DNA from: an uncultured Acidobacteriota bacterium
GTDB lineage: Bacteria; Acidobacteriota; Vicinamibacteria; Vicinamibacterales; UBA8438
Reading direction: 5' to 3'
Length of the DNA stretch: 64,000 nucleotides
Assembly (NCBI GenBank): GCA_913043225.1
Contig: CAJWLU010000015.1
Span: 1-64,000 of the forward strand
Part shown: positions 6,001 to 9,000 of the stretch, piece after piece
How the letters are laid out: every line of letters begins with the position of its first letter
Numbering within the stretch: position 1 is the stretch's first letter
Made by a program: the position numbers

Positions 6001-9000
6001 GTCGCCACTCGCAGTAGTCGTCGAAGCGGTCCAGCCGCACCTCATCGCCCTCGATACTTCGGCGGCCCTGTAGCTGCTGAGCGTCGTACTGTTCACCGGT
6101 TTGTCCTCACCCCGGTTGACTGATGCGGTCATCATACGTGAGCCGATGGCGCCTCCATCTGACCTCGTCGGACGGTACCAGCAGCATCTGGCCGAGACCC
6201 GGGCGCGTCTTGACCGCGTGCTCGGAGCGATGCTGCCGTCGCCAGACGTTGACCTGCGGCCCAGTCCGATCGACAGTGGTTTCCGGAGCCATGCGCGCTT
6301 CTCGGTCGAGCTTCTCGAGGGGCGCTGTGCGGTGCTCGGGACCGACCCGCTGAACGGCTCGGCGGACTGGCGGTCCACGGTCTGGATCCTGCCGAGCATC
6401 GGGCGTCGGCTGGTGGAGAGGGTCGTTGCGCATGTCGAGGAGACCTCCAGCCGGTTTCCCGTGCGCGGGTTCGATCTGTGCCTGGGGCAGGGCACTGAGC
6501 AGGCTCACCTCGTCGTGGCCGTCGATCGTGCCGAACCGGTGTCGTTCCTCCCCTGGGCGCAGGCGATGTTGGAGCGGGACCAGCGACTTACCGGGGTGTC
6601 GGTGCCGTCGCGGTTACTTACGGTAGGCGAGCCGTTCGTCCAGCATCGGGTGTGTGCGGTCGAACTACGGTCGCATCCGCTGGCGTTCTTCCAGACCAAC
6701 CACCGGCTGGCCGACCAGCTGTTCGCCGCTGTACGTGATGCCGCCGGTCGGGAGCCGGCGGACGACCTGCTGGACCTGTATTGCGGGGCTGGTGTTCATG
6801 GCCTGTTGGCTGGAGCTGGCCCGGTGCTTACCGGGATCGATTCGGACCCCCGCGTGGTCGATGTAGCACGGTTCAATGCTCGGCGACTTGGCCGCGCCGC
6901 TCGCTACATTCGTGCCGAAGCCGCGTCGTACCTCGCTCGACCCTGGCCGCGATCGCCTGCGCTTGTCATTGCGAATCCCCCGCGCGCCGGGTGTGGCGAG
7001 GCGGTGAACGCGGCGCTCGGAACGCTGCGACCTCCCCGCGTGTGCCTCGTGTGTTGCTCCGCGGAGTCTCATGCGAGAGACCTAGACCAGCTCGGCGCGG
7101 CGGGCTACGCGGTCGAGCGGTGCACCGCGTTCGACATGTTCCCGTTCAGCCTGCACGTTGAGTGTGTTACCGAGCTCCGGCTCCGTTGAGTTCTCCAGTG
7201 GCGCGGTTGCAATCGAAGTCCGTTCGGCTACACTTGCCCGACCGGGGTCGGGACGACGACACACGGGTACGTTCCAGGAGAGTGGATATGACGCGACGGG
7301 GATTGGATCGACCTCTCGGCGCCCAGGGCGCGAGCCGGCGGCAGCTCTTTAAGCTTTTGGCCGCCAGTCCATTCTTGGGCCTGGCGGCGGCCGGGCTGCC
7401 GGCGAGCTGGCAGCGGGCGCTGGCCAATGAGGCCGAGCGTCGCGCCGTGGCACCGGCCGCGACCTGTGCCAAGTGCGGGGTTGAGATGCCGCTCGCTACC
7501 TCTCGGCAGGAGTATCCCGGGTTGGGCCAGGCGCCAGAAGCGCAGCCGCCGGACGCGATCGACGGACAGTTCAACGGACAGCTGATCGAGTCGGTCGATG
7601 ACGCGATCAACGTGTGGGACTTCGAGCGGGTCTGCCACGCGAACAATCTGCCCCAGCATTGGGACTATCTGCACCTTGGGGTTGACGACTTCGAGACCCG
7701 GTGGGCCAATCGCGAAGGGTTCACGCGCCGGATCATCCGGCCGCGCCGTCTAGGGCCCTCGGCCAACAATCCGGATCTTTCGACCGAGCTCTACGGCCAG
7801 CAGTTCGAGTCGCCGCTGTTTCTCTGTCCGGTCGCAGCCAACGAGGGATATCACACCGAGGGCGAGGCGGGCGCGGCCCGCGCCGCCGGCACGCACGGCA
7901 TCCTCCAGATGCAGTCCCACTCGAGCTCCCAGTCTTACGACGAGATTATGGAGGCTCGTGGCGAGCCGCACTGGTTCCAGCTCTATACGGTGCCAGATTT
8001 CAATGTTAACCAGCGGGTTATCGACCGGGTCGAGTCGGCCGGCTGCCCGGTATTGGTCTGGACCGTCGACCTGATCGGCGGGAGCAACCGCGAACTCGTT
8101 CGCCGGACACTCCAGGGTGACGGGTACGAGGGAGCGCTCTGTCAGAATTGTCACAATCATCAGCCTGGTTACCAGCGGCCGATGCGTGCGGGGCTTGAGG
8201 GACCAGCCGGCGAGCGCTATCCCTACGACTGGGACTATGTGAAGCGGCTTCGAGACATCACCCAGATGAAGCTCGTGCTGAAGGGGATCGTGACGGCCGA
8301 GGAAGCCGAGCTGGCCGTGGACGCCGGCGCCGATGGCATCTTCGTGTCGAATCACGGCGGTCGCGCGGAATCGAGCGGTTGGGCTTCGATCGACTCGCTA
8401 CCCGAGGTGGTGCAGGCGGTCCGGGGGCGGGTGCCCGTGTTCATCGATAGCGGCGTGCGTCGAGGCACCGACATCTTTAAGGCGCTGGCGCTTGGCGCCG
8501 ATGCGGTCGGTATCGGCCGGCCGTACGTGTGGGGACTGGGTGGCTTTGGCGAGGACGGTGTGTCCAAGGTCATTGATCTGCTGCACGACGAGCTTCGGAT
8601 CGCGATGCGTCAGACCCGCACCGCCGCCATTGACCAGATCACCTCGCGCATGGTGATGGAGGGCAAGAATCCCATCATGATGCGCGAAAGCCGGATGGGC
8701 TTTGGACTCTGAGGAAGTTATGGGAATCGTGACACGTGGGTTAGCGCTCTTCTGTGCCGTCCTCGGTGTGGCGGCGGTCACTTCGGCCCAGACGGTTGAT
8801 TTTGCTGTGTCTGGCAATTCGACGATCCGCGGATGGACCTGCGAGGTTAGCGGCACCGCGGAGGTCACCGCGGGCGGGGGTGCCGCCGCTGCCGGGTTCT
8901 CGTCAGGCGTGCAGGGTGTCACCCTCACGGTGCCCGTCGCCGAGTTCACCTGTCCCAACGAGGAGATGACCGAGCACCTCATGGAGGCCATGCGGCCCGA

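What a model noticed while it worked through the whole genome (the two positions that open the first line are those of the whole stretch)
7288..8712. TAT-exported FMN alpha-hydroxy-acid oxidases with an invariant CxxC + CxxCHxH metal site
g02268 and g02673 (C21:43111-44520) are lactate/glycolate-oxidase family enzymes with a twin-arginine signal, an extra N-terminal CxxC and a CxxCHxH inserted in the barrel loop. This is an unnamed exported subfamily with an added metal or haem site.
Evidence so far: Both motifs in 120 of 120 best homologues and the RR signal in 119 of 120; C60, C63, C285, C288, H289, H291 and the catalytic NHGGR invariant in 50 aligned. 910 homologues at E 1e-100. Below all NCBIfam cut-offs. 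Paper search listing showed nothing on it.
(Added by a program. Inside this text positions count along the whole contig: contig position 1 is position 1 of the stretch shown here. "Call 12" and the like, gene names such as g00115 and contig names such as C1 are that model's own, and its searches are not shown. The text may have been shortened before it was handed on; [...] marks where a part breaks off. The agent that wrote the report below was given it as the finding of a first reader that could run no searches.)

Follow-up and report, generated by a model that had tools for sequence, protein, structure and literature searches.

The report
Exported flavoenzyme with heme-c-like loop
This bacterium exports a lactate-oxidase-like flavin enzyme whose active-site lid carries the sequence signature of a covalently bound heme, and it is almost always encoded next to a small lipid- or quinone-carrying protein, so it may be an undescribed periplasmic route for feeding electrons from hydroxy acids into respiration.

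Summary
Window 7288-8712 encodes a 474-aa FMN 2-hydroxy-acid oxidoreductase with an intact active site, a twin-arginine signal, an N-terminal CxxCG and a loop-4 CxxCHxH. The paralogue at C21:43111-44520 has both motifs.

The two cysteine motifs are probably not one site. The loop CxxCH defines a much wider exported clade that lacks the N-terminal CxxC (0 of 120). In that clade CxxCH comes with a Met 8-19 residues downstream (119 of 120) where other family members have Asn. The motif is helical in two models and avoids proline, as heme-c motifs do. The N-terminal CxxCG looks like a zinc knuckle, marks one subclade, and is cleanly deleted in 3 of 201 sequences.

New here: that subclade is almost always followed by a YceI-type lipid/quinone-binding gene (77 of 80 loci; 9 of 9 genomes in a phylum sample).

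Best reading: a periplasmic dehydrogenase with a built-in c-type heme, working like flavocytochrome b2 (about 45%). Against it, Tat export and heme-c attachment rarely go together. No cofactor, substrate or binding was shown.

The parts
7288..8712 (+). FMN-dependent 2-hydroxy-acid oxidoreductase gene, 474 aa
   Evidence: model aligns to glycolate oxidase 5ZBM at Z 47.5, rmsd 1.9 over 338 residues
7288..7425 (+). Twin-arginine signal peptide (SRRQLFK, 20 uncharged residues, Ala-x-Ala at 44-46); cleavage site inferred
   Evidence: pattern rule recalled, no SignalP run; TatC present in the genome
7465..7479 (+). N-terminal CxxCG (C60, C63): zinc-knuckle-like, specific to the subclade
   Evidence: 198 of 201 subclade sequences; 0 of 120 in the broad clade; hairpin in model; Pro after the first Cys in 54 of 121
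7657..7674 (+). His124 (marks the CxxCH clade), Tyr127 (substrate binding) and His129 (marks the subclade)
   Evidence: His124 aligns with Ala140 of flavocytochrome b2
8140..8160 (+). Loop-4 CxxCHxH (C285, C288, H289, H291): candidate heme-c attachment motif
   Evidence: 201 of 201 subclade; CxxCH invariant in 36 divergent sequences of 32% mean column identity, selected for the motif; helix 283-288
8182..8184 (+). Met299: candidate sixth heme ligand; Asn in family members without CxxCH
8350..8364 (+). Catalytic NHGGR (His356, Arg359)
   Evidence: 201 of 201; alignments
8671..8712 (+). Subclade-specific C-terminal tail ending GFGL; role unknown
   Evidence: 201 of 201 for GFGL; pLDDT under 50 in the monomer model
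8720..9268 (+). YceI-family lipid/isoprenoid-binding protein, 182 aa, Sec-type signal, near-invariant C41, C78, M83, H86; starts 7 bases after the dehydrogenase stop
   Evidence: Pfam YceI 6.4e-16; directly downstream in 77 of 80 loci; profile hits solved YceI proteins

Best explanation
A Tat-exported FMN (S)-2-hydroxy-acid dehydrogenase whose loop-4 lid has become a small heme-c module. Well supported by sequence: barrel, full catalytic set, export signal, linkage to the YceI gene. Inferred: the FMN-loaded enzyme is exported with loop 4 accessible; Ccm attaches heme to C285/C288; H289 and probably M299 ligate the iron; FMN passes single electrons to the heme and on to a periplasmic acceptor, as in flavocytochrome b2. 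In this subclade the YceI protein most likely carries a quinone acceptor, or else a hydrophobic substrate. The N-terminal CxxCG is a separate, dispensable zinc half-site, completed by a second subunit or by H129/H291. The substrate is probably bulkier than glycolate, because Trp108 of glycolate oxidase is Ser/Gln/Val here.
For: CxxCH in 120 of 120 broad-clade hits without the N-terminal CxxC (the profile was built from CxxCH sequences, so this is biased toward the motif). Among unselected 50%-cluster representatives, His follows CxxC in 49 of 51 loop motifs. Met at column 299: 119 of 120 broad, 201 of 201 subclade, 26 of 44 divergent representatives, 0 of 73 without CxxCH, of which 52 have Asn. 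Pro after the first Cys: 0 of 241 loop motifs and 2 of 192 genome CxxCH, against 54 of 121 N-terminal motifs and 23 of 91 genome CxxCG. The loop motif is helical in both models, with pLDDT 84-93 in a knuckle-less relative. Ccm-type genes and TatC are in the genome. Weak Pfam cytochrome c hits in 4 of 36 members, best E 0.03. Split-Soret cytochromes c are listed with predicted Tat signals (PMC4429474, PMC3623810; passages). YceI linkage.
Against: c-type cytochromes normally use Sec; a cytochrome c sent by Tat needed its heme before export (PMC6708511, passage). Of 121 CxxCH genes in this genome by my crude gene calls, only these two have a twin-arginine motif. A single CxxCH is a poor predictor: 64 of 4410 in archaea (PMC4429474, passage). 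Met is absent from column 299 in 18 of 44 divergent representatives and occupies a position that is already conserved (as Asn) in the family, so it may be structural. Four of 47 clade rows lost CxxCH, and three of them keep His124. No conserved cytochrome neighbour: another CxxCH ORF in 17 of 80 and 8 of 61 loci, none forming a recurring cluster. No coordinates were available, so no ligand geometry was measured.
Confidence: 0.45

Rival explanations
1. The loop CxxCH binds a single metal ion (Zn, or redox-active Fe) with His124 or His289, loaded in the cytoplasm before Tat export. It staples the lid or relays electrons, with no heme.
For: Fits the Tat rule of folding before export (PMC6708511, passage). 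His124 appears with CxxCH: 36 of 39 against 5 of 72; 120 of 120.
Against: His after CxxC is almost never swapped (49 of 51), whereas zinc sites often exchange His and Cys (recalled). Helical, proline-free motif. His124 persists in three members that lost CxxCH.
Confidence: 0.22
2. C285-C288 is a disulfide, either structural or a redox relay from FMN to periplasmic thiol proteins.
For: Periplasmic location; only two loop cysteines in the broad clade; a sister Tat sequence has CxxCK with Asn at 299 (P0179).
Against: Does not explain the near-invariant His289 or the Asn-to-Met change. No thiol-disulfide protein recurs among neighbours.
Confidence: 0.12
3. One reading: C60, C63, C285 and C288, with or without the histidines, bind one Zn, Fe or Fe-S cluster.
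For: Both motifs are in 198 of 201 subclade sequences. Four cysteines would suit Zn, rubredoxin-type Fe or a cluster (established knowledge).
Against: The loop motif is older and wider than the knuckle. Three members at separate places in the tree lack the knuckle but keep CxxCHxH. The loop is modelled confidently without it. A subclade-specific rewiring cannot be excluded.
Confidence: 0.08
4. Compatible with any cofactor reading: the YceI partner delivers a long-chain or aromatic 2-hydroxy acid (or removes the product) rather than carrying an electron acceptor, and the enzyme may use O2.
For: Small residue at the Trp108 position; smaller residues there favour mandelate (PMC10153336, passage). 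YceI proteins have a long hydrophobic tunnel (PMC5350466, passages).
Against: Most solved YceI proteins hold octaprenyl-like molecules, and ubiquinone-8 delivery has been proposed (PMC5350466, passages). Broad-clade members have a similarly small residue but no such partner.
Confidence: 0.3

Closest known systems
FMN-dependent alpha-hydroxy-acid oxidases/dehydrogenases (PF01070): glycolate oxidase 5ZBM/1GOX, HAO1, lactate oxidase, 4-hydroxymandelate oxidase
   Same: TIM barrel (Z 47.5), about 35% identity, all catalytic and FMN-binding residues.
   Different: Twin-arginine signal, CxxCH and Met in loop 4, N-terminal CxxCG, GFGL tail, linked YceI gene; below all NCBIfam cut-offs.
Flavocytochrome b2 (1FCB, yeast L-lactate:cytochrome c oxidoreductase)
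   Same: Same flavin domain; proposed FMN-to-heme relay outside the energy-conserving membrane. His124 aligns with Ala140, next to Gln139 and near Tyr143, which face the heme in Fcb2 (recalled).
   Different: Fcb2 has a separate b5-type domain with non-covalent heme b. No such domain here; the proposed heme would be covalent and inside loop 4.
PauLDH of Photorhabdus australis (PMC9670274)
   Same: Family member with a predicted Tat signal, assayed as a dehydrogenase that prefers 2-hydroxyvalerate.
   Different: Belongs to the lactate oxidase cluster; no cysteine motif or heme is reported in the passages read. Its sequence was not compared here.
Split-Soret cytochrome c
   Same: c-type cytochrome listed with a predicted Tat signal (PMC4429474, PMC3623810; passages).
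   Different: Unrelated diheme protein; its Tat use is a prediction in both papers.
YceI / bacterial lipocalins (Campylobacter 2FGS, BcnA 5IXH, E. coli YceI 1Y0G, TT1927b 1WUB)
   Same: The partner gene matches them (best E 7e-07) and keeps the His of RDxHL.
   Different: The Arg of RDxHL is replaced by Met83; two added near-invariant cysteines; tightly linked to a flavoenzyme.

Membership tests
PF01070 FMN alpha-hydroxy-acid oxidoreductases | Barrel fold and profile score above cut-off | tested here: met
   332 bits against 24.9; Z 47.5
PF01070 FMN alpha-hydroxy-acid oxidoreductases | Seven active-site residues (glycolate oxidase Y24, Y129, D157, R164, K230, H254, R257; list recalled, five named for lactate oxidase in PMC9670274) | tested here: met
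   Y127, Y233, D261, R268, K332, H356, R359; 197-201 of 201
PF01070 FMN alpha-hydroxy-acid oxidoreductases | Oxidises an (S)-2-hydroxy acid; oxidase or dehydrogenase | not testable with these tools
   needs an assay
Named subfamilies (lactate oxidase, LldD, MftD) | NCBIfam cut-off | tested here: not met
   220/645.5, 174/550, 163/470.85 bits
Flavocytochrome b2 | N-terminal cytochrome b5-like domain | tested here: not met
   no b5 match in Pfam; match to 1FCB starts at its residue 114
c-type cytochromes | Conserved CxxCH in an exported protein | tested here: met
c-type cytochromes | Maturation system in the host | tested here: met
   CcmC-, CcmE- and CcmF-type motifs at C5:180726-187778; not discriminating, 298 of 301 phylum genomes have PF01578
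c-type cytochromes | Sec-type (unfolded) export | tested here: not met
   twin-arginine pattern in 120 of 121; the route actually used was not tested
c-type cytochromes | Cytochrome c domain by profile | tested here: inconclusive
   4 of 36 weak hits, best E 0.03, below significance
c-type cytochromes | Covalently bound heme | not testable with these tools
   needs heme stain or mass spectrometry
Tat substrates | S-R-R-x-F-L-K-like motif with hydrophobic stretch, and TatC in host | tested here: met
   the same rule passed only 79 of 120 broad-clade proteins, a looser one 120 of 120
Zinc ribbon / zinc hook (N-terminal motif) | Two CxxC knuckles completing four ligands | tested here: inconclusive
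   one knuckle per chain; partner ligands not identified
YceI (partner gene) | Profile match and signal peptide | tested here: met
YceI (partner gene) | Binds an isoprenoid or lipid | not testable with these tools
   needs purification and mass spectrometry

The most novel reading that the evidence does not exclude
A widespread bacterial clade has built a covalent c-type heme into the lid loop of an FMN TIM barrel, converging on flavocytochrome b2 without a separate heme domain. The heme is attached by Ccm after export of the folded flavoprotein through Tat, against the usual Sec-only rule. In this subclade a dedicated YceI protein shuttles a quinone between the enzyme and the membrane, which would give that family a defined physiological job.
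Probability: 0.3. Interest if true: 0.82.

Novelty: new variant of a known kind. Interest (0 to 1): 0.62.

Why it matters
If the heme is real, it tests directly whether Ccm can mature a loop of an already folded, Tat-exported protein. It would also add a single-domain flavin-heme enzyme of interest for direct-electron-transfer hydroxy-acid sensors. The tight dehydrogenase-YceI pairing offers a handle on the unclear physiological role of YceI proteins (PMC5350466). The broad clade includes a member in a cultured Methylobacterium, so the test is easy. If the site is only structural zinc or a disulfide, this is a modest unnamed subfamily.

Tried and rejected
Co-occurrence with cytochrome c maturation genes had no power: 298 of 301 phylum genomes have PF01578. 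The 301-genome tallies include three genomes flagged unpublished (G048, G145, G023); they enter only the totals, and no locus or positive linkage claim rests on them.

The structure tool returned no coordinates, so no distances were measured.

Atlas search on loop residues 262-314 gave no usable hit; on a broad member it gave only PF01070 clusters. The search for longer forms gave 2 hits of 7999 candidates, neither with a listed heme domain; one looks like a read-through.

His124 as heme ligand: weakened, since it is kept after loss of CxxCH. PQQ-dehydrogenase neighbours (25 of 80 loci) were set aside because the genome has 78 such hits. No neighbour recurred in more than 3 of 79 broad-clade loci; many of those contigs are short. 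A cytochrome c gene upstream in Methylobacterium is a single case.

Contigs from 4 marine RNA runs cover parts of the gene, but this does not show transcription. Three CxxC hits without His were not examined.

Paper searches for this clade found nothing on it (listings only); the library lacks most subscription papers. One supplement of PMC9670274 was searched for five taxon names without a hit.

Full report
Observation. Window 7288-8712 (+) is a 474-aa ORF matching Pfam FMN_dh at 5.6e-99 and below all listed NCBIfam cut-offs. The best solved single-domain relatives are glycolate oxidases, and the AlphaFold2 model (mean pLDDT 86) aligns to 5ZBM at Z 47.5, rmsd 1.9 over 338 residues. Y127, Y233, D261, R268, K332, H356 and R359 correspond to the family's active-site set (numbering partly recalled). 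The paralogue C21:43111-44520 has both motifs. Close relatives are mostly Vicinamibacterales and Gemmatimonadota genomes. The figure of 910 homologues was not checked.

The two motifs have different histories. I aligned the query with 135 of the 150 listed 50%-cluster representatives (lengths 230-540). Of these 136, 49 have CxxCH in loop 4, one CxxCN, one CxxCK, 76 no CxxC, and 9 lack the loop. A tree of 110 core sequences (those passing coverage and motif filters, plus 14 added) puts CxxCH and His124 in one clade of 47 rows (SH-aLRT 98), inside a larger clade of mostly twin-arginine proteins (54 rows, 99). The N-terminal CxxCG is confined to a nested subclade of 11 rows (100) (quick search, no bootstrap). 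A profile of 36 divergent members lacking the N-terminal motif retrieved 120 proteins: CxxCH 120, N-terminal CxxC 0, second His 0, RR 120; that profile favours CxxCH by construction. Within the subclade, 3 of 201 sequences (121 proteins plus 80 loci, overlapping sets) have a clean deletion of the knuckle, keep CxxCHxH, and lie at separate places in the tree. A joint four-cysteine site is therefore unlikely.

The loop motif looks like a heme-c site. His follows CxxC in 49 of 51 loop motifs. Relative to other family members about 13 residues are added before the conserved Asn position and about 10 removed after it. That Asn becomes Met: 201 of 201 in the subclade, 119 of 120 in the broad set, 26 of 44 divergent representatives, and 0 of 73 without CxxCH. 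In 80 metagenome loci, 77 could be scored, 61 had CxxCH, and 53 of those had a Met shortly after. Proline never follows the first Cys in 241 loop motifs (one divergent representative has it); the genome's own CxxCH motifs show 2 of 192, its CxxCG motifs 23 of 91, and the N-terminal motif 54 of 121 (crude gene calls). The model makes the loop motif a helix (283-288) and the N-terminal motif a hairpin (58-59, 66-67), both at pLDDT about 70. A knuckle-less relative has the loop at pLDDT 84-93 with the motif again helical. The genome has Ccm-type genes and TatC. His124 aligns with Ala140 of flavocytochrome b2, on the side where that enzyme's heme docks (recalled).

Against heme. A cytochrome c routed through Tat required heme before export (PMC6708511, passage), and only these two of 121 CxxCH genes in the genome carry a twin-arginine motif. 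Single CxxCH motifs are mostly false positives in an archaeal survey (64 of 4410; 157 had a signal or anchor; PMC4429474, passage). Met is missing at that column in 18 of 44 divergent representatives. Four clade rows lost CxxCH and three of them keep His124. Pfam cytochrome hits are weak (4 of 36, best E 0.03). The only precedent I found for Tat plus heme c is split-Soret cytochrome c, and it is a prediction (PMC4429474, PMC3623810; passages). Loop 4 is known to be flexible in this family (PMC10153336, passage), which makes attachment after export conceivable; that step is inference.

A YceI-family gene (8720-9268, Sec-type signal) starts 7 bases after the stop. A homologue lies directly downstream on the same strand in 77 of 80 subclade loci, including Gemmatimonadota and all three knuckle-less members. 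The C21 paralogue has none, and the genome has one copy. In 301 Acidobacteriota genomes, 18 had a hit; the 9 with at least 50% identity all lie next to a subclade dehydrogenase, and the other 9 are at most 32% identical; three of those were checked and have no such neighbour. None was found beside 17 broad-clade genome loci (about 1.5 kb flanks, two truncated), the Methylobacterium locus, or 61 metagenome loci. These genomes are related, so the counts are not independent. The partner has near-invariant C41, C78, M83 and H86; H86 is the family's RDxHL His and M83 replaces its Arg. YceI proteins usually crystallise with octaprenyl-like molecules, and their role is unclear (PMC5350466, passages).

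Mechanism. Supported by sequence: an exported FMN 2-hydroxy-acid oxidoreductase with an intact active site, genetically coupled to a lipid-binding periplasmic protein. Inferred: substrate reduces FMN; electrons pass singly to a His/Met c-type heme in the lid and then to a periplasmic cytochrome or, in this subclade, a YceI-borne quinone (45% for the heme-relay model). Rivals for the loop are a mononuclear Zn or Fe site (22%), a disulfide (12%) and the joint site (8%). YceI may instead deliver a hydrophobic substrate (30%, independent of the cofactor). The Trp108 position is Ser/Gln/Val, which suggests a substrate bulkier than glycolate. The knuckle is best read as a zinc half-site; C60, C63, H129 and H291 are among 39 subclade-specific conserved positions, so a Cys2His2 site and an inter-subunit hook both remain open.

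Relation to known systems. It is a member of PF01070 but of no named subfamily tested. It would work like flavocytochrome b2 but is not one, having no b5 domain. A predicted Tat signal in the family is already in print for PauLDH, and many members labelled oxidase are dehydrogenases (PMC9670274, passages and sections 6 and 8). A survey of the class recognises only b5 fusions and long loop-4 stretches as extras (PMC8491902, passages and section 8). Passages of PMC11238220, PMC7312611, PMC6311187, PMC4257694, PMC4683180 and PMC11492766 added nothing on this clade. Searches listed no paper on it; subscription literature is mostly not covered. Earlier notes of this scan had no match by sequence and mention a separate cysteine-rich, possibly Fe-S lineage of the family (unchecked).

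Verdict. A real, uncharacterised variant of a known enzyme family. The cofactor is unproven. Interest 0.62.

Noticed in passing
window 8720-9268 (+): YceI-family gene tightly linked to the dehydrogenase subclade (77 of 80 loci); Arg of RDxHL replaced by Met, two added cysteines.
   Followed up: yes
window 7333-7371 (signal peptide): The signal peptide is unusually conserved across phyla (RRxFLxxLAxSP; Ser27 invariant in 149 aligned sequences), which may mean a chaperone site or docking on the enzyme.
   Followed up: partly
window 8671-8712: C-terminal tail ending GFGL is invariant in 201 of 201 subclade sequences but unstructured in the monomer model; a candidate contact for a neighbouring subunit or the YceI partner.
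   Followed up: no
L002:6913-9192 (G000 C1:165912-168191): Tandem pair of other twin-arginine-type FMN_dh genes without CxxCH; the second lacks most of loop 4. They are followed by a PQQ-dehydrogenase-like gene.
   Followed up: no
L083:7641-9149: Broad-clade member (CTDCH ... KPM) in cultured Methylobacterium bullatum, just downstream of a cytochrome c gene; a convenient test protein.
   Followed up: partly
P0272-P0391, column 268: In the broad clade the substrate-binding Arg (glycolate oxidase R164) is Thr in 95 of 120, with an Arg two positions earlier in 103 of 120, suggesting a changed substrate pocket.
   Followed up: no
window 9353-14625 (+): Downstream run of a LolA-like gene, two permease-like genes, an ATPase-like gene and a probable outer-membrane protein on the same strand; only the first was checked against Pfam. 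Not seen as a recurring neighbour.
   Followed up: no
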